Shown: positions 1 through 7,090 of the stretch, in pieces
Layout: each line of letters starts with the position of its first letter
Position numbering within the stretch: position 1 is the first letter of the stretch
Virus record (IMG/VR): IMGVR_UViG_3300028591_003737
Span: 1-64,000 of that record
Source of the DNA: a virus
Taxonomy: Duplodnaviria > Caudoviricetes
DNA length: 64,000 bases
Strand: one strand, 5' to 3'
Translations under genes and position numbers: made by a program
Notes under the pieces: model-generated
Told to the model about the DNA's origin: nothing
Database searches by the model: none
The model's input: the letters and a program-made list of their open reading frames with translations, nothing else

Positions 1-70
1 CGGGAGAAGGGATTCGAACCCTCGACTTCAACCTTGGCAAGGTTGCGCTCTACCACTGAGTTACTCCCGC
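1..70 (-). tRNA. tRNA-Gly(GCC), 3' end at window edge
   Basis: Cloverleaf; anticodon arm CAACC-TT GCC AA-GGTTG; T-loop GTTCGAATC. Confidence 0.92.
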
Positions 71-283
71 ATAAATACAGGCACGTAAACGAAATGCCCT
101 CAGAATTTTCTATGGTTTACCTTTACCGTTCTTCAAACCATGTTACAGCTCCTTCACACTATCCTGAAAACAAACTTTATCACTGACTAGCTTTGTCAGA
201 TATACTCAATTGTTAACATACAACAGAGAAAACGATGGTTCACTTATTACGCTACACCACAAAGAGCGGGTCTGTTTACTTTG

Positions 284-359
284 TGCAGCATAGGTGAGTC
301 GAACACCCGTCCCCGACATGGCAAGCCGGTATAATTAATTACCGTTATACGAATGCTGC
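284..359 (-). tRNA. tRNA-Gly(GCC), divergent copy
   Basis: Acceptor GCAGCAT/ATGCTGC; CCGGC-TT GCC AT-GTCGG. Confidence 0.8.
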
Positions 360-366
360 ATAATTT

Positions 367-513
367 GTGTGGGAGGTTGGACTTGAACCAACATAATCTT
401 TTTTGTCATAAAAGCGTGTATACCATTTGAAGTAACTCTTCGACCACACTATTGGGTAGAAGCCAAAGAACAATGTCTAGAGTGTAATTTCGTTTAATTT
501 CACCACTCCCACA
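367..513 (-). ncRNA. tRNA-scaffold RNA with Y-RNA-like stem replacing the anticodon arm (E1)
   Basis: Acceptor TGTGGGAG/CTCCCACA, D arm, T arm GTTGG-TTCAAGT-CCAAC; insert CTCTAGACATTGTTCT-TTGG..CCAA-TAGTGTGGTCGAAGAGTTACTTC. Confidence 0.7.
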
Positions 514-514
514 G

Positions 515-599
515 TGCGGTATAGACGATTCGAACGCCCACCTTCTGGTTGGAAGCCAGATATGCTTCGCTTTCGCTTTACCATTAACACTAATACCGC
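515..599 (-). tRNA. tRNA-Gly(TCC) with expanded D loop
   Basis: TCTGG-CT TCC AA-CCAGA; extra GC-GAAA-GC segment in D loop. Confidence 0.78.
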
Positions 600-604
600 A
601 TAAA

Positions 605-630
605 AATCTACCATTGTGGAATGGTAGATT
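605..630. other. Perfect hairpin (processing site or terminator)
   Basis: AATCTACCATT-GTGG-AATGGTAGATT, 11-bp inverted repeat. Confidence 0.5.
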
Positions 631-720
631 GACCATACCTAGTTTTACCTATAAACTATAACTACGAACTCGATAACGGATTAGTCGCCTCCGTCGGATT
701 TCAATGTACACTCATCCGAG

Positions 721-792
721 AGCAGGTGAACGGAATCGAACCGTCATCCTCAGCTTGGAAGGCTGACGCACTAACCGTTGTGCTACACCTGC
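721..792 (-). tRNA. tRNA-Gly(TCC)
   Basis: TCAGC-CT TCC AA-GCTGA. Confidence 0.92.
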
Positions 793-919
793 ATGGTCAA
801 GTACCCGGATTTCCACCAACTTTTTACAACCTTAATATAATATAGAAAAATTAACTAGTACTTTTTAAATATTATACTTAGTTCTCCTTCTGGTTTCGAA
901 ACCTGACAGAAGGTGTACT

Positions 920-996
920 TGGGGTGAGTTACCGGATTCGAACCGGTCCTCAGGGATTCACAGTCCCCACGACTCAACCGCTATCTTAAACCCACC
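920..996 (-). tRNA. tRNA-His(GTG), encoded G-1 and CCA
   Basis: GGGGA-CT GTG AA-TCCCT; C73. Confidence 0.88.
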
Positions 997-1002
997 ATGT
1001 AG

Positions 1003-1076
1003 GGTGCCTAGTCGGGATCGAACCGACGACATGCGGAACCACAATCCGCCGCTCTGCCAACTGAGCTATAGGCACC
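1003..1076 (-). tRNA. tRNA-His(GTG)
   Basis: GCGGA-TT GTG GT-TCCGC; G-1. Confidence 0.92.
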
Positions 1077-1083
1077 ATGTAAA

Positions 1084-1408
1084 AAACAGATTTTCTTAGT
1101 TAAGCGTATACTGACCATCTGTTAGGGTCTACCACGCATGGGTTCCTCTCCGTTTCGCAGCTTTTCCATGAGCTGTCGTAGCATGTACTATACTTCTACT
1201 ACGCTGTTCCAATTAGGTATAGATGGTAAATCAAAACAATCAACCAGTGCCCTTATTACTGCCTTACTCCCTGGAATATGAAGGTACGCCGACATTCAGT
1301 TTGATTTCTCATACGGTCTAGTTTGTTATGTCTCATTTCAACAATGATAGGGAGGATAACTTTCATTTGCAACCTATCTACCGCAACTGCTTCATATACT
1401 GATTGTTA
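1084..1408 (-). ncRNA. Putative structured ncRNA (~325 nt), unclassified
   Basis: ORF-free, GC-richer than coding DNA, inside tRNA operon. Confidence 0.35.
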
Positions 1409-1415
1409 TAAAAAA

Positions 1416-1740
1416 AATCAAGCTTTACTACATCAGTCACTTACATAACCTCGGCTTTCGGAGCATCAATCTACCATCTTTCGAAGGATTGACTCTACAC
1501 GAGGATTGCATTACCATTGGCGTATTTCACGTAGAAATTACCGGTTTTACTATCATAGAGGTGTTCTGCATCAATTGTAATTTATCACTAATGTCGTGTT
1601 TATATTTACAATTTCAGTTTCGTTGGACAACCCGACGCTTCGGAACGGTTTCATATTACATAGGCTACTGCGCACTCACCTATCCGATTACTCCACATCC
1701 TACTGGCAAGGTTCTTCTTAAAAAAGAACGAGGCTTGATT
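1416..1740 (-). ncRNA. Putative structured ncRNA (~325 nt), unclassified
   Basis: Closed by AATCAAGC/GCTTGATT terminal helix; GC-richer; abuts a tRNA. Confidence 0.45.
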
Positions 1741-1745
1741 TATTG

Positions 1746-1820
1746 TAGCGGTGGGGAGATTCGAACTCCCACTGAATAGGTTTTGAATCTACTGCCATCT
1801 TCCAGTTGGGCTACACCGCC
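1746..1820 (-). tRNA. tRNA-Leu(CAA), short variable loop
   Basis: GTAGA-TT CAA AA-CCTAT; 5-nt variable loop TCAGT. Confidence 0.82.
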
Positions 1821-1825
1821 ATATT

Positions 1826-1965
1826 AATCTGAAGAACATTTAGAAGAGGTAAGTGGACTAACCACCATGTTTGTCATTTCTGACTGATAGGCTCGAACTA
1901 TCTAAAATCTTATTTCCAGTAAAATTTATTAACCATGAAGTATCTCTTCAGATCACTATCAGATT
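1826..1965 (-). ncRNA. YrlA-like (Y RNA) circularly permuted tRNA mimic (E2)
   Basis: Ends AATCTGA/TCAGATT pair; TAGTGATCTGAAGAGATACTTC ... T arm GATAG-TTCGAGC-CTATC, capped acceptor GTCA-GAAA-TGAC, D-like arm, CTCTTCTAAATGTTCT. Confidence 0.7.
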
Positions 1966-1966
1966 G

Positions 1967-2055
1967 CGGTGAGTAGAGGTGTCGAACCTCATCCGGGTCT
2001 TAACCGAACTAACTGATTTCCAATCAGCACCCATCTCCGTTTGGGATTGCTCACC
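1967..2055 (-). tRNA. tRNA-Ser(GGA)
   Basis: GCTGA-TT GGA AA-TCAGT; long variable arm. Confidence 0.85.
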
Positions 2056-2061
2056 AATTAA

Positions 2062-2153
2062 TGGCGGAGAGCAGAGGTGTCGAACCTCATCCGGTTATTA
2101 GCCGAACAACACGTTTAGCAGACGGTTACCATCTCCGTTTGGTTTTACTCTCC
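2062..2153 (-). tRNA. tRNA-Ser(GCT), divergent, CCA encoded
   Basis: CGT-CT GCT AA-ACG; long variable arm; body similar to upstream Ser(GGA). Confidence 0.8.
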
Positions 2154-2160
2154 AATTATG

Positions 2161-2247
2161 CGGTGGGGGCGAGATTCGAACTCGCGGACCCCTTACGGGG
2201 TCGGCAGTTTAGCAAACTGCTGGTTTAAGCCACTCACCCACCCCACC
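2161..2247 (-). tRNA. tRNA-Ser(GCT)
   Basis: GCAGT-TT GCT AA-ACTGC; long variable arm. Confidence 0.93.
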
Positions 2248-2615
2248 ATTAAAAAACAAGCTTTCACACCTTCAGTACTTGTTATGAAAGGTTTTGATTT
2301 CGTCACCTTAACTGGTCATCCGAGGCCGCTTGGTCATACCCGATGACTGTTGAGCATTGCTTCACCAAGTTCTAACTCAACGAGCTATAAATGAGGTCGT
2401 TGTTCCAGTTACTTTTTGTCGGCTTTAAGTAACAAACCATTATCTCCACAATTACGGTATTGTGGTCAACCAAGGCATCCATTCTTCGATTGGTGCCATA
2501 CACAGAGCTTAAAATAAATCTTTGTTATTCAAGTTCCGAAACTCAATCTGTCTTCAGATGAGCAAAAATACCAATGGCTAGTCTCCTCAGACTGTAACCG
2601 CTTTTGTTTTTTAAT
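2248..2615 (-). ncRNA. Putative structured ncRNA (~370 nt), unclassified
   Basis: 12-bp perfect terminal helix ATTAAAAAACAA/TTGTTTTTTAAT; internal hairpins; no ORF. Confidence 0.45.
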
Positions 2616-2805
2616 CTTCTTATTACATCCTATAAGAAGGACAGATTCGTACAACTGTCAGGTTAACTGTGATACTAACCCAATCACACGGTCGTATTTT
2701 ATAAATAAGTTTTTATATCTACCATGTTGCAGGTACTTAAATATATTTTAAGTTTTAGTTATTAAGAGAACTTATAAACTCATTAATAAACCTTGCCAAG
2801 GTCTG

Positions 2806-2879
2806 TAGCGTGACCTGGAGTCGAACCAGGGACCTTGGGGGTATGAATCCCACGCTCTAGCCAACTGAGCTATCACGCC
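2806..2879 (-). tRNA. tRNA-Met(CAT), elongator type (or Ile2)
   Basis: TGGGA-TT CAT AC-CCCCA. Confidence 0.88.
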
Positions 2880-2886
2880 ATTTTTA

Positions 2887-3058
2887 ACTATTTACTTCTG
2901 AAGGTTTTTATTAAACTATGTATTCCTCTTTTCTTGCTTATCCGGACCCGACCGTTGGAACCCACCTCAGATTATTGAACTACGAACATTCAAATTTTGC
3001 TACTGTGATCTTTCAGAATTAAATCATAACTAGTTATAGTCGCCGATATATAAATAGT
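2887..3058 (-). ncRNA. Putative structured ncRNA
   Basis: Terminal ACTATTTA/TAAATAGT and inner TTCTGAA/TTCAGAA pairing. Confidence 0.35.
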
Positions 3059-3208
3059 ATAATTAGAGCATTATAGAATTTGCAACTTCTATAAATTGTT
3101 ACTTGATATGCTATTCATTTATAACACCACTAAGCACCTGCTGAGGAGGACCGCTTATCAATATCTAGAATTTGATTTTATAACGCCGTCACCTTCAAGT
3201 ATCTCTTG

Positions 3209-3283
3209 TCGGAGCACGTGGATTCGAACCACGGACCCTCTGCTTGTAAGGCAGATGCTCTGAACCAACTGAGCTATGCTCCG
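3209..3283 (-). tRNA. tRNA-Val(TAC)
   Basis: TCTGC-CT TAC AA-GCAGA. Confidence 0.93.
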
Positions 3284-3412
3284 ATTAAAATAATAAGGAT
3301 AACCACTTAACCTTATTTCTTCAATATAACTCCCGTTAAAGAAATATTAAATTAAACCCTTTTAAGGTAGCACCTATCTAGAGAGGTAACGGTCCTCTTG
3401 GGTTGGTTTTTG

Positions 3413-3489
3413 TGGGGATAGTCGGAATCGAACCAACGAAATGCCCATCTTGTAAGGATGGCGGCTTAAACCTACTGGCCTATATCCCC
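3413..3489 (-). tRNA. tRNA-Val(TAC), divergent copy
   Basis: CCATC-CT TAC AA-GATGG. Confidence 0.85.
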
Positions 3490-3496
3490 AAATTAT

Positions 3497-3607
3497 ACCG
3501 AAAGAACATTTAGTAGAGCATTGTGTCACCATTGACGTTTTTCCTGAGCTTTGGTAGAAAAAATAAGAATCGAACTTATGAAGTATCTCTACAGACCACT
3601 ATTCGGT
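3497..3607 (-). ncRNA. YrlA-like (Y RNA) circularly permuted tRNA mimic (E3)
   Basis: Ends ACCGAA/TTCGGT; TAGTGGTCTGTAGAGATACTTC, T arm ATAAG-TTCGATT-CTTAT, looped acceptor TTTTTCT..AGGAAAAA, D arm GTCA-ATGG-TGAC, CTCTACTAAATGTTCT. Confidence 0.72.
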
Positions 3608-3608
3608 G

Positions 3609-3682
3609 TCGGTCTGGGAAGACTTGAACTTCCGACCCCTACATTATCAGTGTAGTGCTCTAACCAACTGAGCTACAGACCG
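3609..3682 (-). tRNA. tRNA-Ile(GAT)
   Basis: CTACA-CT GAT AA-TGTAG. Confidence 0.93.
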
Positions 3683-3897
3683 AAATATTGCCCAATCTTA
3701 AACATGTCTGCACTGCGACCTAACAGGACTTTGTTAGTTTCTCCTCCAGTAATATCCCTCATGACTACTTTACGTATCCTATATTTGGAGTTTAATGATA
3801 CCATCCTACATTTACTCATATTACCTCTTGCGGTTCACACCCCAATGTTTCTCCAATCCATTGAGTTTATTCCGTGAGTTTTAAGATCTACAAGCTG

Positions 3898-3972
3898 TAC
3901 CCCTGAGGAGATTCGAACTCCTACTGAATGGATTCTAAGTCCATTGCCATCTTCCAGTTGGGCTACAGGGGC
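3898..3972 (-). tRNA. tRNA-Leu(TAG), short variable loop
   Basis: ATGGA-CT TAG AA-TCCAT; same D arm as Leu(CAA) at 1746. Confidence 0.85.
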
Positions 3973-4060
3973 ATATATAAGTTTTTGTATCATACCTTAC
4001 TATTGAGGTTGAATATTAAAATATTCATTTATACTTAGGATAACTTTAAACCTTCTTTTG

Positions 4061-4135
4061 TACTCCTGACGGGATTCGAACCCGTGTTTCCACCTTGAGA
4101 GGGTGACTACCTCGACCACTAGTATAGACAGGAGC
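4061..4135 (-). tRNA. tRNA-Glu(CTC)
   Basis: TCACC-CT CTC AA-GGTGG. Confidence 0.88.
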
Positions 4136-4142
4136 ATAATTT

Positions 4143-4266
4143 ACTAAGAATCTTGCAAGTAACTTACTTTAATCTCATTTGGATTCGAACCAAATCCCCT
4201 TCTAAAAGGATCCTCCCAAGTATGCATCGCCTTTTACACTATTTTGATTATTTCAGTATTCTTAGT
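4143..4266 (-). ncRNA. Degenerate tRNA-like element within a 9-bp outer helix
   Basis: T arm TTTGG-TTCGAAT-CCAAA and D-like arm, no canonical anticodon arm; ACTAAGAAT/ATTCTTAGT ends. Confidence 0.5.
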
Positions 4267-4269
4267 TTG

Positions 4270-4428
4270 TACCATTCCTTGGAATCGAACCAAGTTCCTC
4301 TGGGCTCTCTACCCAGCGATTTATGTGTCTTCAATACTTAATAACTAAATTATACCTACTTAACGCGTATTTCAATATAACTTGCTATCAGTTTATCGCT
4401 CAGGGTGACTCCAACCGTCCCGAATGGC
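4270..4428 (-). ncRNA. tRNA scaffold with ~85-nt insertion in the anticodon arm
   Basis: Acceptor GCCATTC/GAATGGT, D arm GAC..GTC, T arm CTTGG-TTCGATT-CCAAG; AGCGAT/ATCGCT closes insert. Confidence 0.65.
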
Positions 4429-4496
4429 GAAAGCTTCCAAGAGTTTCGAACCTACAAGAAAACCCCAACTAATTGTATGTGTTCGATTAGTTGTTG

Positions 4497-4569
4497 TGGA
4501 CCCTACGAGAATCGAACTCGTACTTGAAGCTTGCAAAGCTACTGTGCTAACCGTTATCACTAAGGGCCC
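4497..4569 (-). tRNA. tRNA-Ala(TGC)
   Basis: TT TGC AA loop; G3:U70. Confidence 0.9.
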
Positions 4570-4575
4570 AGAAAA

Positions 4576-4667
4576 ATTTGAAGTGCCGGCCAGCTTACCA
4601 ACTAGGATAGACACTGTAACCCGTTATCTATCTACATCTACTCATCGATGCAATGGTAACTTCAAAT
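4576..4667 (-). ncRNA. Putative small structured RNA
   Basis: 9-bp terminal helix ATTTGAAGT/ACTTCAAAT. Confidence 0.35.
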
Positions 4668-4674
4668 AATTTAA

Positions 4675-4845
4675 AATAGCACAGGCAACAGTCTCTTCCA
4701 TGCAGTTTCCAAAACATTTAAACCCTGATTAACAGACTGGTTCTGACACACAATTAGATGACTTAAATCTCCGGAGAGTCAATTCTAAAAGGTACATAGA
4801 CTTCAGCGCTGTCTACCTGTTGTAGTTGACGTCATAACTGCTATT
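4675..4845 (-). ncRNA. Putative structured RNA (~170 nt)
   Basis: AATAGCA/TGCTATT and ACAGG/CCTGT pairing. Confidence 0.35.
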
Positions 4846-4849
4846 ATTG

Positions 4850-4923
4850 TGGACCCGAAGGGAATCGAACCCTCCACGATCTCCTTGCAAGGGAGTTCCG
4901 CCAGCCTTGGTACATGCAAGCCC
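4850..4923 (-). tRNA. tRNA-Ala(TGC), divergent copy
   Basis: CTCC-CT TGC AA-GGAG; G3:U70. Confidence 0.82.
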
Positions 4924-4933
4924 ATAAATATTT

Positions 4934-5072
4934 GCTAGCAAAGAGGGACTCGAACCCCCGACCCGCGGTTTGGACTAAAATTTGAAGTAACTCTAAACTT
5001 CAACACAGTTAAGGTAATAATCGTCAGAGCATTAAATTTAACTGCTGCTCTACCTACTGAGCTATTTGCTAG
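4934..5072 (-). ncRNA. tRNA with Y-RNA-like stem inserted in the anticodon loop (E4)
   Basis: Canonical acceptor, D arm GCTC..GAGC and T arm; ~65-nt insert containing CTCTGAC..GTGTTGAAGTTTAGAGTTACTTC. Confidence 0.72.
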
Positions 5073-5074
5073 TG

Positions 5075-5169
5075 CGGAGATAGCCGGACTCGAACCGACA
5101 CACCGGAGTGGTTACCGATTACTCGTAGTTTTCAGGACTACTGCCTTACGCAATTAGGCTTATATCTCC
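5075..5169 (-). tRNA. tRNA-Ser(TGA), C33 variant
   Basis: GTAGT-CC TGA AA-ACTAC; long variable arm. Confidence 0.8.
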
Positions 5170-5177
5170 ATATTGTG

Positions 5178-5265
5178 CGGAGGGTGAGGGATTCGAACCC
5201 CCGGTGCGCTCAACACGCACAGCGGTTTTCAAGACCGTCGCTATCGACCACTCAGCCAACCCTCC
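5178..5265 (-). tRNA. tRNA-Ser(TGA)
   Basis: ACGGT-CT TGA AA-ACCGC. Confidence 0.93.
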
Positions 5266-5268
5266 ATA

Positions 5269-5706
5269 TTATTTTGCTGAATATTGATGAATTACTCCAT
5301 GACAATTAGAACATAAAATTTGTAAATTATCTAAAGAATTATCAAAATGATTATGATTTTTATGATGTAATTCAAGTGGAATTGGTTTACCTTGCCATTC
5401 ACTTAATCCACAACATTCACATTTTCTTTCTTTTAAACCATCTCTAAATAATTTATTTCTTAATTTAGGAGCATCTAAATAAATATTATTTTCAATATAA
5501 TACATTGCTGGTTTATAATCATTACCAGGAATACCTTTACCACTAGGATTTAATTTAATTTCAATATTTAATATTTTTAAATTATCTCTTAATGTACTAT
5601 ATTTCATATTAAAATGTTTAGCAATTGCTGATAATGGAATATGTTTATCCATTAAATCAACAATTTCATCTAAATGATTTTTTACAACATTTAATTTTGA
5701 ATTCAT
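5269..5706 (-). CDS. HNH endonuclease (free-standing, homing type)
   Basis: CECC...LELHHKNHNHFDNSLDNLQILCSNCH; N-terminal HTH-like segment. Confidence 0.88.
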   Translation of the reverse strand: MNSKLNVVKNHLDEIVDLMDKHIPLSAIAKHFNMKYSTLRDNLKILNIEIKLNPSGKGIPGNDYKPAMYYIENNIYLDAPKLRNKLFRDGLKERKCECCGLSEWQGKPIPLELHHKNHNHFDNSLDNLQILCSNCHGVIHQYSAK

Positions 5707-5725
5707 ATTATATATAATATTTATG

Positions 5726-5808
5726 TCGGCGTGGAGGGAGTCGAACCCTCACGAGCGTAGCTCACATGTTCCTTAGACATGCCTGTATACCAGTTCCAGC
5801 ACACGCCG
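5726..5808 (-). tRNA. tRNA-Leu(AAG)
   Basis: CATGT-CT AAG GA-ACATG; long variable arm. Confidence 0.88.
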
Positions 5809-5820
5809 ATAATTATTTAG

Positions 5821-5894
5821 TCGGGATAGCGCGACTCGAACGCGCGACCTCTAGTTCCCAAAACTAGCGTTCTAACCAACTGAACTACATCCCG
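5821..5894 (-). tRNA. tRNA-Pro(TGG)
   Basis: CTAGT-TT TGG GA-ACTAG. Confidence 0.93.
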
Positions 5895-6083
5895 ATAAGT
5901 TGCATATATTAATATAGTAAAACTATACTAATATATGCATTATAATTGTTGTTTTCCTTTTACCAGTCACGGCTATTCAGAAAACTAATAATATGCATTT
6001 ACCAGACTTGTCAAAGACCTATGTTCTTGTAAATATATAATAGATATTTTCAGAATATCTTTTCATATATTTTAGAACTTTTG

Positions 6084-6155
6084 CAGGAGTTACAGGATTC
6101 GAACCCATACCTGTGGTTTTGGAGACCAATATGCTGCCATTAACACCAAACTCCT
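6084..6155 (-). tRNA. tRNA-Trp(CCA)
   Basis: TGGT-CT CCA AA-ACCA; G73. Confidence 0.9.
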
Positions 6156-6163
6156 ATTATTTG

Positions 6164-6238
6164 TCGAGAGGCCCAGATTCGAACTGGGATTTCTACTGTA
6201 TCAGAGTAGGATCCTAAAACCATTTAGATGATCTCTCG
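6164..6238 (-). tRNA. tRNA-Ile(GAT), divergent copy
   Basis: CTACT-CT GAT AC-AGTAG. Confidence 0.78.
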
Positions 6239-6309
6239 ATAGCCTGAGAATCGGAAATTTATATACTCAATATATAAATGCCTAAATTATAAAAATTTTT
6301 CTCTCAGTG

Positions 6310-6385
6310 TGCCCACGATCCGAATCGAACGGATGCCTCCAGATCTTCAGTCTGACGCGCTAACTACCACCTACGCAACATGGGC
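6310..6385 (-). tRNA. tRNA-Phe(GAA), divergent copy
   Basis: TCAGA-CT GAA GA-TCTGG. Confidence 0.85.
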
Positions 6386-6396
6386 ATTATCGCTTG

Positions 6397-6472
6397 TCTA
6401 GTAGATAGGACTCGAACCTACATTATCCGCATTCCAAATGCGGCAACCTAAAGCCAATTGGTTTACTACTAG
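6397..6472 (-). tRNA. tRNA-Pro(TGG), A37 variant
   Basis: CCGCA-TT TGG AA-TGCGG. Confidence 0.82.
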
Positions 6473-6491
6473 ATATATTTCAATGATCTAG

Positions 6492-6563
6492 AGTCGGGTA
6501 CCGGATTCGAACCGATGTTGACAGTTTTGCAGACTGTTGCCTAAGCCCCTCGGCCAACCCGAC
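6492..6563 (-). tRNA. tRNA-Cys(GCA)
   Basis: ACAGT-CT GCA AA-ACTGT; U73. Confidence 0.92.
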
Positions 6564-6570
6564 TTATTTG

Positions 6571-6643
6571 AGTCTCTGACAGGATTCGAACCTGCATATC
6601 TGATTTTGCGGACCAGTACCTCAATCCATTCGGCCACAGAGAC
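6571..6643 (-). tRNA. tRNA-Cys(GCA), C33 variant
   Basis: CTGGT-CC GCA AA-ATCAG; U73. Confidence 0.85.
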
Positions 6644-6654
6644 ATTTTATTATG

Positions 6655-6727
6655 CGGGCCTGACCGGAATCGAACCAGTGACACGAGGATCTTCAGTCCC
6701 CTGCTCTACCAACTGAGCTACAGGCCC
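6655..6727 (-). tRNA. tRNA-Phe(GAA)
   Basis: GGGGA-CT GAA GA-TCCTC. Confidence 0.93.
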
Positions 6728-6729
6728 AT

Positions 6730-6741
6730 TTTCAAAGAACT
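6730..6741 (-). promoter_or_regulatory. boxA-like antitermination site
   Basis: AGTTCTTTGAAA on the minus strand, identical to 6821-6832. Confidence 0.55.
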
Positions 6742-6745
6742 TTTG

Positions 6746-6819
6746 TACCCCACCCGAGAGTCGAACTCGGAAAACCTGGTCTCTTAAGCCAGTACGTATG
6801 CCAATTCCGTCAGCGGGGC
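6746..6819 (-). tRNA. tRNA-Leu (AAG, ambiguous loop), short variable loop
   Basis: CTGGC-TT AAG AG-ACCAG with C.A mismatch; Leu-type D arm. Confidence 0.7.
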
Positions 6820-6820
6820 G

Positions 6821-6832
6821 TTTCAAAGAACT
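6821..6832 (-). promoter_or_regulatory. boxA-like antitermination site
   Basis: AGTTCTTTGAAA just 5' of the first tRNA of the operon. Confidence 0.6.
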
Positions 6833-6852
6833 AATGTTTGTTTTGTATACTT

Positions 6853-6880
6853 ATTATAGAAATAAATTTTCTAAATTCAA
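6853..6880 (-). promoter_or_regulatory. Promoter of tRNA operon (TTGAAT..TATAAT)
   Basis: Minus strand TTGAATTTAGAAAATTTATTTCTATAAT; motif recurs in the window. Confidence 0.55.
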
Positions 6881-6988
6881 AATATTCTATAAAAAATTTC
6901 GAAGGTTTTTTGATATCTTTCTCAAATACCAAATAACCTTCGATTTACCTATCTTATATGTTGTTTTATTTGATATTTGAGCCTCTAT

Positions 6989-7090
6989 CTAGCATCCACA
7001 AGGGAAACCAGCAAACACTGATGCAACAGGTGACCAACTGAGCTGGCTACCTGAAATCTCACGAGCAATATGCATCATAGTGTTTCTCAT
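6989..7090 (-). CDS. 33-aa peptide MRNTMMHIAREISGSQLSWSPVASVFAGFPCGC
   Basis: Read by eye; upstream TTGAA-type promoter (7173-7200); downstream hairpin 6899-6945. Confidence 0.4.
   Translation of the reverse strand: MRNTMMHIAREISGSQLSWSPVASVFAGFPCGC

What the first reader, a model, noticed from the sequence alone, without database searches (positions are those of the whole stretch)
367..5072. One tRNA-mimic RNA family present in two circular permutations (Y-RNA order and tRNA order)
Seen: four minus-strand elements share a bipartite stem, 5' strand GTG..AGAGWTACTTC and 3' strand CTCT..(TGTTCT). E2 (1826-1965) and E3 (3497-3607) open at the end of that stem and read stem > T arm > looped acceptor stem > D arm > stem. 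E1 (367-513) and E4 (4934-5072) open at the acceptor stem like a normal tRNA, with the same stem (strands in swapped order, capped by a loop) in the anticodon arm. They are the same circle cut at different points. Known: bacterial YrlA Y RNAs are permuted tRNA mimics that bind Ro60/Rsr and are linked to RNA decay and repair. Inference: E2/E3 are phage Y RNAs, and E1/E4 are an un-permuted, possibly CCA-added or aminoacylatable form that could be an evolutionary intermediate or a distinct functional class. I am not aware of such co-occurring permutants being described.
Basis: partly seen in the sequence, partly recalled or inferred. Interest (0 to 1): 0.9.

Follow-up and report, generated by a model that had tools for sequence, protein, structure and literature searches.

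The report
Phage Y RNAs in tRNA array
Four small RNA genes hidden in a rumen phage's tRNA cluster share a conserved folded "handle" that, in many other phages, sits next to the gene for the RNA-binding ring protein Ro60. Two are built like rearranged tRNAs and two like ordinary tRNAs, and I found the second layout in no paper I could read.

Summary
All four minus-strand elements carry one conserved "handle": outer stem P1, loop UAGUGA opposite ..UUCU, inner stem P2 ending AGAG/CUCU, then WUACUUC. In E2 and E3 the handle is open-ended around a T arm, a closed acceptor hairpin and a D arm. In E1 and E4 it is loop-capped inside a tRNA body with a free 7-bp acceptor stem.

The handle is a large phage RNA family. 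A model built from other phages scores E2 and E3 at 47.5 and 43.9 bits, and all 13 modelled pairs covary.

The family is tied to Ro60:
- 41-43 of 47 handle-bearing phage records encode a TROVE protein, against 1 of 27 controls.
- 62 of 80 phage TROVE loci have handles beside the gene, all on its strand.
- Cultured phage crAss001 has both layouts, unannotated, right after its TROVE gene.

Rfam YrlA matches relatives only below threshold, and YrlA's GNCGAA motif is replaced. These are therefore diverged YrlA-type Y RNAs.

Caveat: no Ro60 gene lies in the 169.6 kb held for this phage (60% complete, cut inside the array), nor in an 83%-complete relative.

Earlier notes of this scan describe the same kind of RNA on other DNA.

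The parts
1826..1965 (-). E2: open-ended Y-RNA-like unit (handle around a permuted tRNA mimic)
   Evidence: R2 model from other phages: 47.5 bits, E=7.6e-9, full length 1-67. Lies flush between tRNA-Ser 1966-2055 and tRNA-Leu 1745-1820.
1959..1965 (-). E2 outer stem P1, 5' strand; pairs with 1826-1832
   Evidence: P1 pairs covary in the family.
1937..1958 (-). E2 handle 5' half: loop UAGUGAUCU (1950-1958), P2 strand GAAGAG (1944-1949), AUACUUC (1937-1943)
1905..1927 (-). E2 anticodon-arm look-alike: 8-bp stem with 7-nt loop CUGGAAA (a GGA, serine-type anticodon)
   Evidence: MFE fold; coordinates; the unit follows tRNA-Ser(GGA).
1853..1902 (-). E2 T arm (1886-1902), closed 4-bp acceptor hairpin with GAAA loop (1873-1884), D arm (1853-1865)
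1826..1848 (-). E2 handle 3' half: P2' CUCUUC (1843-1848), loop UAAAUGUUCU (1833-1842), P1' (1826-1832)
3497..3607 (-). E3: open-ended Y-RNA-like unit
   Evidence: R1 26.5 bits; R2 43.9 bits, E=5.8e-8. Lies between tRNA-Ile 3608-3682 and tRNA-Val 3412-3489.
3580..3607 (-). E3 handle 5' half: P1 (3602-3607), loop UAGUGGUCU (3593-3601), P2 GUAGAG (3587-3592), AUACUUC (3580-3586)
3525..3579 (-). E3 cargo: T arm (3563-3579), closed acceptor-like hairpin (3538-3562), D arm with GG loop (3525-3536)
3497..3518 (-). E3 handle 3' half: P2' CUCUAC (3513-3518), loop UAAAUGUUCU (3503-3512), P1' (3497-3502)
367..513 (-). E1: tRNA-framed unit with free 7-bp acceptor stem (506-512 with 369-375) and discriminator A at 368
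   Evidence: Its counterpart in a relative (around L128:4579-4631) keeps the stems through compensatory changes in acceptor pairs 1-72, 2-71, 3-70 and in the T stem.
429..482 (-). E1 loop-capped handle: P2' (475-482), loop AUUGUUCU (467-474), P1 hairpin (452-466), loop UAGUGUG (445-451), P2 (436-444), UUACUUC (429-435)
   Evidence: R3 47.6 bits, but E1 is one of its 17 seeds; coordinates.
376..428 (-). E1 rest of the tRNA body: D-loop remainder with GG and D-stem 3' strand (416-428), anticodon-like arm with loop AUGACAA (398-414), 5-nt variable loop (393-397), T arm (376-392)
   Evidence: The counterpart in L128 has loop AUUUGGA in the same frame.
4934..5072 (-). E4: tRNA-framed unit with acceptor 5065-5071 / 4936-4942, intact D arm 5047-5062 and T arm 4943-4959
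   Evidence: Rfam tRNA 44.1 bits with 71 nt in place of the anticodon loop; ARAGORN does not call it.
4965..5045 (-). E4 extended anticodon arm: stem 5041-5045 / 4965-4969, bulge GUCCAA (4970-4975), P3 5034-5040 / 4976-4983, P2' 5024-5029, 27-nt cap holding remnants of the loop motifs (4997-5023), P2 4991-4996, UUACUUC 4984-4990
   Evidence: R3 45.4 bits, but E4 is one of its seeds; coordinates.

Best explanation
E1-E4 are four members of a widespread phage and bacterial family of Y RNAs, the small RNA partners of the ring protein Ro60. This family is a diverged branch of the YrlA type.

All four share a rod-like handle. It has an outer stem P1, an internal loop (UAGUGA opposite ..UUCU), a 7-9-bp inner stem P2 and a kink region (WUAC-UUC opposite ..ACA). 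By analogy with known Y RNAs, this handle is the docking site for Ro60. What hangs on the handle is a variable tRNA look-alike.

In E2 and E3 the RNA's two ends form the handle and the tRNA mimic has a closed acceptor hairpin (the permuted, YrlA order). In E1 and E4 a hairpin or loop closes the handle and it is plugged into a tRNA body whose acceptor stem is open. In E4 it sits at the anticodon-loop position; in E1 it sits in the D-arm region.

The units sit flush between ordinary tRNA genes. They are most likely cut out of the array transcript by the same enzymes that trim tRNAs (RNase P and the 3' tRNA-trimming enzymes).

Shown here: the family, its fold, both layouts, and its linkage to Ro60 genes in other phages and bacteria.

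Inferred: Ro60 binding, processing by tRNA-end enzymes, and the role of the tRNA-shaped part as bait or adaptor for a tRNA-binding factor. The Ro60 that would serve this phage was not found. It may lie in the missing 40% of the genome or belong to the host.
For: 1. Family and fold. The pattern scan found the module in over 100 viral contigs. A model from six seeds recovered 91 copies, of which 82 are distinct. In these, 95% of cells pair, 13 of 13 pairs show double changes, and the covariation score is 0.952 against 0.205 shuffled and at most 0.112 slid. R2 finds E2 and E3 at E<1e-7. The closed form covaries on a sequence-only alignment.

2. Ro60 linkage, forward direction. TROVE (PF05731) is present in 41 of 47 handle-bearing records, and in 18 of 18 that are at least 90% complete. 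It is present in 1 of 27 records that matched the pattern by chance (Fisher p=3e-13). A phage TROVE profile raises the count to 43 of 47. In 11 of 12 loci checked, the TROVE ORF lies within about 800 nt of the handles on the same strand.

3. Ro60 linkage, reverse direction. By my count of the table, 62 of 80 phage TROVE loci have at least one handle within 6 kb. All 169 hits are on the TROVE strand, and most lie just upstream of the gene.

4. Bacterial and archaeal genome collection. TROVE is present in 4 of 6 loci with true handles and in 0 of 74 chance loci (p=9e-6).

5. Cultured phage crAss001. Gp96, annotated as a TROVE protein, is followed by an unannotated 0.9-kb stretch with three open and two closed units. 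The gene is an early gene (PMC8375218).

6. Kinship with YrlA. The order of stems and loops is the same as in the Rfam YrlA consensus. YrlA gives full-length sub-threshold matches on members: 40.1, 35, 31.7 and 31.3 bits, with E from 2e-5 to 8e-3. A conserved UA follows the inner stem, as in YrlA (10.1101/312249).

7. Array context. E2 and E3 start 0-1 nt after the upstream tRNA and end 5-7 nt before the next one.
Against: - No TROVE gene is in the 169.6 kb held for this phage, by Pfam model or by phage-specific profile. None is in the 236-kb, 83%-complete relative G075, which carries seven open units and one closed unit.
- The defining YrlA motif GNCGAAN0-1G (PMC4201824) is absent from the family consensus.
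- The Rfam YrlA and Y_RNA models do not hit E1-E4 at E<=10.
- Binding to Ro60 has not been shown for any member of this family.
- The 80 TROVE loci were chosen by likeness to TROVE proteins of handle-bearing phages, so the reverse test is not fully independent.
- About a third of the 47 records are close relatives of crAss001.
Confidence: 0.72

Rival explanations
1. In this phage lineage the handle works without Ro60. It docks another protein (for example PNPase or another RNase), or it only stabilises tRNA decoys. The Ro60 link seen elsewhere does not apply here.
For: No TROVE in G000 or in the 83%-complete relative G075, although both keep several conserved units. The ORFs beyond the relative's array show nothing Ro60-like. 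Thermus phage Y-like RNAs bind host PNPase on their own in vitro (PMC12135203).
Against: Both records are incomplete, and G000 is cut inside its array. The loop letters of E2 and E3 match the family consensus found beside TROVE genes, which argues for the same partner. A host Ro60 could serve: the control genome Bacteroides thetaiotaomicron has TROVE.
Confidence: 0.13
2. The units are unusual pre-tRNA genes (permuted or intron-bearing). Their shared module is a splice and processing signal, as the bulge-helix-bulge motif is in archaea and red algae. After cutting and joining they become working tRNAs.
For: The module occurs around whole tRNAs (L044:2188-2320 encloses tRNA-Asn), around permuted tRNA bodies, and inside tRNA bodies. 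That is the same set of topologies as bulge-helix-bulge sites. Removing the insert from E1 leaves a plausible cloverleaf with anticodon GAC.
Against: - Many members are 59-75 nt with no tRNA part at all.
- E2's acceptor is a 4-bp hairpin closed by GAAA.
- Removing the module from E4 cannot give a 7-nt anticodon loop with U33 (sequence).
- No splicing endonuclease is known in bacteria (10.1101/312249), and no RtcB is in the record.
- Contigs from RNA libraries span E2, E3 and E4 with the module in place, and no listed joint removes it (contigs, weak evidence).
- The Ro60 linkage is unexplained by this reading.
Confidence: 0.07
3. The module is a self-cleaving ribozyme or nuclease site that trims neighbouring tRNAs in the array.
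For: Conserved internal loops flanked by covarying stems. The units abut tRNA 3' ends. Small ribozymes next to phage tRNAs are known from the literature (my recollection, not checked here).
Against: No match to any ribozyme family of Rfam 15 at E<=10. The family also occurs directly next to TROVE genes with no tRNA nearby, as in crAss001.
Confidence: 0.04
4. The four elements are decayed tRNA pseudogenes whose likeness is chance or recent duplication.
For: They lie in a crowded array that holds many odd tRNA-like pieces.
Against: Covariation across 82 distinct homologs from unrelated phages. Models built without window sequence find E2 and E3. The counterpart of E1 in a relative with 41-44% protein identity keeps all stems by compensatory changes.
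Confidence: 0.01

Closest known systems
YrlA (Y RNA-like A; Rfam RF02553; Chen et al. 2014, PMC4201824; structure in bioRxiv 10.1101/312249)
   Same: Encoded beside Ro60 (at family level). The 5' and 3' ends form a two-stem handle with an asymmetric internal loop. A conserved UA follows the inner stem. Then come the T arm, a closed acceptor hairpin and the D arm (E2, E3). Rfam YrlA gives full-length sub-threshold matches to relatives.
   Different: - The handle loop reads UAGUGA opposite ..UUCU instead of GNCGAAN0-1G.
- No member reaches the gathering score.
- Many members have no tRNA part, a whole tRNA, or an anticodon-arm look-alike.
- E1 and E4 have the handle inside an unpermuted tRNA body.
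- Units come in arrays and inside tRNA clusters.
- No Ro60 gene was found in this phage.
Mycobacterium smegmatis YrlA (cut by RNase P, then CCA-added; PMC4201824)
   Same: A Y RNA whose tRNA-like part has a 7-bp acceptor stem and ends up with tRNA-like free ends. This is the nearest published approach to the E1/E4 state.
   Different: There the free ends arise by cutting a closed acceptor loop, which leaves a two-piece RNA. E1 and E4 are encoded with open acceptor ends and a capped handle.
Thermus phage phiLo Ro60 with Yrl1/Yrl2 (PMC12135203)
   Same: A phage Ro60 with small RNAs encoded next to it. Binding was shown in vitro, and a complex forms with host PNPase.
   Different: Those RNAs carry the CGAA motif and no tRNA-like domain is described. 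The present family has another loop sequence and tRNA-shaped cargo.
Circularly permuted tRNA genes of Cyanidioschyzon merolae and Thermofilum pendens (cited in 10.1101/312249)
   Same: The gene order (3' half, then closed acceptor, then 5' half), with the ends pairing in an extended anticodon stem, is that of E2 and E3. Permuted and normal orders coexist in one genome.
   Different: Those are matured into working tRNAs through a bulge-helix-bulge splice site and a 7-bp acceptor. Here the shared stem is a conserved Ro60-linked module, E2's acceptor has 4 bp, and no sign of joining was seen.

Membership tests
YrlA / bacterial Y RNA (RF02553) | Gene lies next to a Ro60 (TROVE) gene: tested on the relatives of E1-E4 | tested here: met
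   41-43 of 47 handle-bearing records against 1 of 27 controls. Adjacent on the same strand in 11 of 12 loci. 62 of 80 TROVE loci carry handles. crAss001 gp96 is followed by the array.
YrlA / bacterial Y RNA (RF02553) | Gene lies next to a Ro60 (TROVE) gene: tested in this phage | tested here: not met
   No TROVE in the 169.6 kb held. The record is 60% complete and is cut inside the array. The relative G075 (83% complete) also has none.
YrlA / bacterial Y RNA (RF02553) | Conserved 5'-strand motif GNCGAAN0-1G (the Ro60 contact) | tested here: not met
   The family consensus at that place is UAGUGA. Only E1 happens to read GUCGAAG, and that lies inside P2.
YrlA / bacterial Y RNA (RF02553) | Two-stem handle made by the RNA's ends, then T arm, closed acceptor stem-loop and D arm | tested here: met
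   Met for E2 and E3; same order as the Rfam consensus line. Not the layout of E1 and E4, which are unpermuted.
YrlA / bacterial Y RNA (RF02553) | Reaches Rfam's gathering score (69 bits) | tested here: not met
   No match on E1-E4 at E<=10; the weak YrlA hits in the array span ordinary tRNA pairs. Relatives reach 31-40 bits.
YrlA / bacterial Y RNA (RF02553) | Binds Ro60; carries tRNA-type modifications (TruB, DusA) | not testable with these tools
   Needs pull-down, EMSA and modification mapping.
tRNA (RF00005) | Cloverleaf with a 7-nt anticodon loop on a 5-bp stem | tested here: not met
   E4 scores 44.1 bits but has 71 nt in place of the loop. E1 gives only a 17.9-bit partial match. ARAGORN calls none of the four.
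Circularly permuted pre-tRNA genes | 7-bp acceptor stem with a cleavable linker, and ends whose joining restores a 7-nt anticodon loop | tested here: not met
   E2's acceptor is 4 bp closed by GAAA. Many family members have no tRNA part. No joint removing the module appears in RNA-library contigs (weak).
Known self-cleaving ribozyme families (Rfam 15) | Match to a family model | tested here: not met
   None at E<=10 over window 1-7000.

The most novel reading that the evidence does not exclude
The tRNA-framed units (E1, E4 and their kin in crAss001 and other phages) are trimmed by RNase P and the 3' tRNA-trimming enzymes, receive CCA and present a complete tRNA surface, while their extra arm holds Ro60. 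E1 even has valine-type marks: A35, C36 and A73. They would then be adaptors or decoys that bring Ro60 (and through it an exonuclease) to enzymes that charge, modify or cut particular tRNAs. The anticodon-like loop would be retargeted quickly: GAC in E1 against UUG in the counterpart of a related phage. In this lineage, which shows no Ro60 gene of its own, the RNAs would capture the host's Ro60.
Probability: 0.22. Interest if true: 0.85.

Novelty: new variant of a known kind. Interest (0 to 1): 0.68.

Why it matters
Y RNAs are known as Ro60 partners, and YrlA as a permuted tRNA mimic, but what the tRNA-like part binds is still unknown.

This family adds several things:
- The same Ro60-linked handle carries nothing, a permuted tRNA mimic, a whole tRNA, or sits inside a normal tRNA body.
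- Anticodon-like loops differ between close relatives.
- The variety points to tRNA-recognising enzymes as the targets.

It also makes the question testable. The cultured gut phage crAss001 has a TROVE early gene followed by both layouts in a stretch that is unannotated today.

For annotation, it shows that Rfam's YrlA model misses a large phage branch. It also shows that gaps in phage tRNA arrays can hold such RNAs even where no Ro60 gene is in view.

Tried and rejected
- **Rfam.** Searched at gathering and at E<=10. No YrlA, Y_RNA, ribozyme or other family covers E1-E4. The weak YrlA rows at 5022-5126 and 6703-6772 span ordinary tRNA pairs.
- **Splice-module idea.** For about twenty calls I read the module as a splice or processing signal, or a ribozyme. 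I compared it from memory with hairpin, hammerhead, twister, pistol, HDV-like, k-turn, loop E and T-box stem I motifs and found no convincing fit. I dropped the idea after the TROVE tests.
- **RtcB (PF01139).** None in the record.
- **BLAST against GenBank phages.** Window 1-7000 matched only tRNAs and the HNH gene.
- **First model.** R1 with default filters missed E2 because of its 88-nt cargo. With filters off the scores were low. The rebuilt model R2 solved this.
- **Alignments.** MAFFT alignments A1-A4 were out of register in the 3' half and were not used for models.
- **RNA libraries.** Rumen metatranscriptome contigs cover parts of the array. The joints listed are cross-matches between tRNAs. 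Nothing can be said about RNA ends, strand or level, and stretches without cover carry no meaning.
- **Neighbouring ORFs.** Pfam on the two large ORFs next to the array, and on the ORFs beyond the relative's array, gave nothing relevant.
- **L127.** Its 435-kb contig could not be searched for TROVE because it is not held.
- **Closed form beside TROVE.** It is rare among the 80 TROVE loci, at 2 hits. Low-scoring R3 hits inside tandem arrays are junctions between neighbouring open units, not true closed units.
- **Review.** PMC10870794 could not be read.

Full report
**Setting.** The window is the first 64 kb of a 169.6-kb IMG/VR virus record that CheckV puts at 60% complete. Public runs that hold the sequence are sheep and cattle gut samples.

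Positions 1-6820 are a dense minus-strand tRNA array. ARAGORN and Rfam each tRNAs there. The array runs off the left end of the contig, because a tRNA is cut at position 1. In a related jumbo phage the array continues for about 9.6 kb past the matching point. The four elements lie in gaps of this array, each flush against its neighbouring tRNAs.

**Checking the observation.** AGAGWTACTTC occurs exactly four times in the window. All four copies are on the minus strand at E1-E4. A fifth copy, with one mismatch, lies at 3196-3206.

E2 and E3 share the same order of parts:
- an outer stem P1;
- a loop that starts UAGUG;
- an inner stem P2 that ends AGAG;
- AUACUUC;
- a T arm, a closed hairpin and a D arm;
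- CUCU.. closing P2;
- UAAAUGUUCU, then P1'.

E1 and E4 begin and end with 7-bp acceptor stems. They carry the same pieces in the order CUCU....UUCU, cap, UAGUG-like..AGAG, UUACUUC. The statement that this is one circle cut at two points is a fair description.

In E1 the module is inserted after the 5' strand of a split D stem. E1 also has its own anticodon-like hairpin (loop AUGACAA), then a 5-nt variable loop and the T arm. In E4 the module sits on the anticodon stem, but its outer stem has decayed to a 27-nt loop. E2 also carries an anticodon-arm look-alike, with loop CUGGAAA.

**A large family.** The pattern TAGTG-N5-8-AGAGWTACTTC hit more than 114 viral contigs. Some hits are chance matches inside ORFs. 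Many others show the full module with complementary but different P1 and P2 sequences.

Members are very varied:
- units of only 59-75 nt with no tRNA part at all;
- units with a hairpin as cargo;
- units with a permuted tRNA mimic, like E2 and E3;
- units that enclose a whole ARAGORN-called tRNA (L044:2188-2320);
- loop-capped units inside tRNA bodies, like E1 and E4.

A covariance model from six short seeds (R1) recovered 91 copies in the fetched loci. On that alignment 95% of cells pair and all 13 pairs have double changes. The covariation score is 0.952, against 0.205 for shuffles and at most 0.112 when partners are slid. That alignment is fitted to the model, which favours the structure. 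The slid controls and the number of pair types make a chance origin untenable all the same.

The rebuilt model R2 scores E2 at 47.5 bits and E3 at 43.9 bits, and finds nothing else of note in the whole record. For the loop-capped order, a plain MAFFT alignment of 17 copies gives 90% pairing and a score of 0.576 against 0.208. Model R3 finds only E1 and E4 in the window. Both are seeds of R3, so their scores there are not independent.

**How my reading changed.** At first I read the module as a splice or processing signal, because it occurs around tRNAs, around permuted tRNAs and inside tRNAs. Notes from earlier work of this scan on other genomes described the same stem-cargo-stem plan next to phage Ro60 genes. 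I treated that as a lead and tested it.

**The Ro60 tests.**
- *Forward test.* The Pfam TROVE model matches 41 of 47 handle-bearing records, including 18 of 18 that are at least 90% complete. It matches 1 of 27 records that had hit the pattern only by chance (p=3e-13). A profile of ten phage TROVE proteins adds two more.
- *Adjacency.* In 11 of 12 loci examined, the TROVE ORF is within about 800 nt of the handles on the same strand, often within 10-40 nt.
- *Reverse test.* Among 80 phage TROVE loci, 62 by my count have at least one R2 hit at E<=0.001 within 6 kb. All 169 hits lie on the TROVE strand, mostly just upstream of the gene. These loci were picked by likeness to TROVE proteins of handle-bearing phages, so this test is not fully independent.
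- *Cellular genomes.* In the bacterial and archaeal collection, 6 of 80 pattern loci have true handles. Four of these six have TROVE beside them, and none of the other 74 does.
- *A cultured phage.* Bacteroides phage crAss001 has a TROVE gene (gp96). The unannotated 0.9 kb after it holds three open and two loop-capped units. Published transcriptomics place that gene among the earliest expressed and do not mention partner RNAs (PMC8375218, PMC10136315).

**Relation to YrlA.** Published YrlA RNAs are Ro60 partners. Their ends form a stem that carries GNCGAAN0-1G, and their other half is a permuted tRNA mimic with a closed acceptor stem and no anticodon loop (PMC4201824; 10.1101/312249).

The Rfam consensus line shows the same sequence of stems and loops as the present family. 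The Rfam model gives full-length matches to several members, but at 31-40 bits, far below its 69-bit cut-off. It gives nothing on E1-E4. The Ro60-contact motif is replaced by UAGUGA.

I therefore file the family as a diverged branch of the YrlA kind, not as a member of RF02553 as now defined.

The loop-capped, tRNA-framed layout is not in the papers I could search or read. The nearest published case is M. smegmatis YrlA, which gains free tRNA-like ends only after RNase P cuts its acceptor loop. The layout is uncommon: 2 of the 80 TROVE loci have it. It nevertheless recurs in crAss001 relatives, in this phage's lineage and in several other contigs.

**What is missing here.** No TROVE or RtcB gene is found in the held part of this phage.

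Two relatives share 41-44% identity over a 1643-aa neighbour protein, and both also keep handle RNAs in their tRNA arrays. One of them, 236 kb and 83% complete, has no TROVE either. The other could not be searched.

One of these relatives holds the counterpart of E1. Its acceptor and T stems are kept by compensatory changes, and its anticodon-like loop is different: AUUUGGA against AUGACAA.

Either the Ro60 gene lies in unsequenced parts, or this lineage uses the host's Ro60, or the handle has another partner here. I cannot decide between these.

**RNA evidence.** Contigs from four rumen RNA libraries span E2, E3, E4 and part of E1 with the handle in place. No listed joint removes it. These are contigs and may include DNA carry-over. 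They say nothing about ends or abundance and only weakly speak against splicing.

**Mechanism.** My committed reading has three steps.
1. The array is transcribed as a whole.
2. tRNA-end enzymes release each unit. E2 and E3 start 0-1 nt after the upstream tRNA and end 5-7 nt before the next one. E1 and E4 have ordinary acceptor stems.
3. The handle docks Ro60, and the tRNA-shaped part engages a tRNA-binding factor.

Only the conservation, the fold and the gene linkage are shown. Binding, processing and the target are inferred. Published work gives the frame: bacterial Y RNAs tether Ro60 to PNPase, and a Thermus phage Ro60 with its RNAs binds host PNPase and damps it (PMC4201824; PMC12135203).

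**Verdict.** It is a new variant of a known kind. The interesting parts are the second layout, the breadth of the family (including a cultured model phage) and its presence in a lineage with no Ro60 gene in view.

Noticed in passing
L336 (MH675552.1, Bacteroides phage crAss001) 3445-4159; record about 95,965-96,870: The unannotated 0.9 kb right after gp96 (TROVE protein) holds three open units (3445-3524, 3539-3612, 4018-4159) and two tRNA-framed units (3660-3713, 3902-3954). This is a cultured system in which the family can be tested.
   Followed up: partly
window 1246-1734, 2379-2810, 3688-3886, 4269-4436, 4514-4925 (minus strand): Long stretches of the array with no tRNA and no Rfam match are covered by near-identical contigs of high word depth in rumen RNA libraries (up to about 1380 in X7). 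They may be further unannotated structured RNAs.
   Followed up: no
window 517-582, 4851-4923, about 4440-4500, 4270-4320, 4190-4260 (minus strand): tRNA-like pieces with good T arms (GGTTCGA-type) that ARAGORN does not call and Rfam scores below threshold (23.3 bits for 517-582; 19.1 bits as tRNA-Sec for 4851-4923).
   Followed up: no
window 3050-3207 (minus strand): A fifth, partial copy of the handle. AGAGATACTTG follows tRNA-Val directly, without the UAGUG loop, and an AATGCTCT..TTATAC stretch like E4's lies about 125 nt downstream. Neither model scores it, so it may be a decayed unit.
   Followed up: partly
window 283-6819: Many tRNAs come in same-anticodon pairs, with one scoring high and one low on the Rfam model. 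Examples are His 64.2 and 46.7, Val 72.4 and 53.8, Ile 73.2 and 44.7, Ser(tga) 55.7 and 44.3, and Phe 66.4 and 53.4 bits. The low scorers may be variant copies.
   Followed up: no
window 5269-5706 (minus strand): A 145-aa ORF with weak HNH and helix-turn-helix matches sits inside the tRNA array. Similar HNH genes occur in crAss-like and other phages.
   Followed up: partly
L008, L031, L040 (relatives of crAss001), tRNA-framed units: Near-identical units differ in the 7-nt anticodon-like loop (CGUUUAA, CUGGUAA, CUGAUAA). This fits fast change of that loop between close relatives.
   Followed up: no
L192 (Nibricoccus sp. MAG, 5.16-Mb contig) 987-7077: A cellular contig carries about 30 tRNA genes, four handle RNAs (3854-4742) and a TROVE gene (4684-6261) in one block. 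It is either a prophage or a chromosomal island of the same design.
   Followed up: no
G000:C1:73909-73980 (minus strand): A weak R2 match (16.8 bits, E=0.48) outside the array; probably noise.
   Followed up: no
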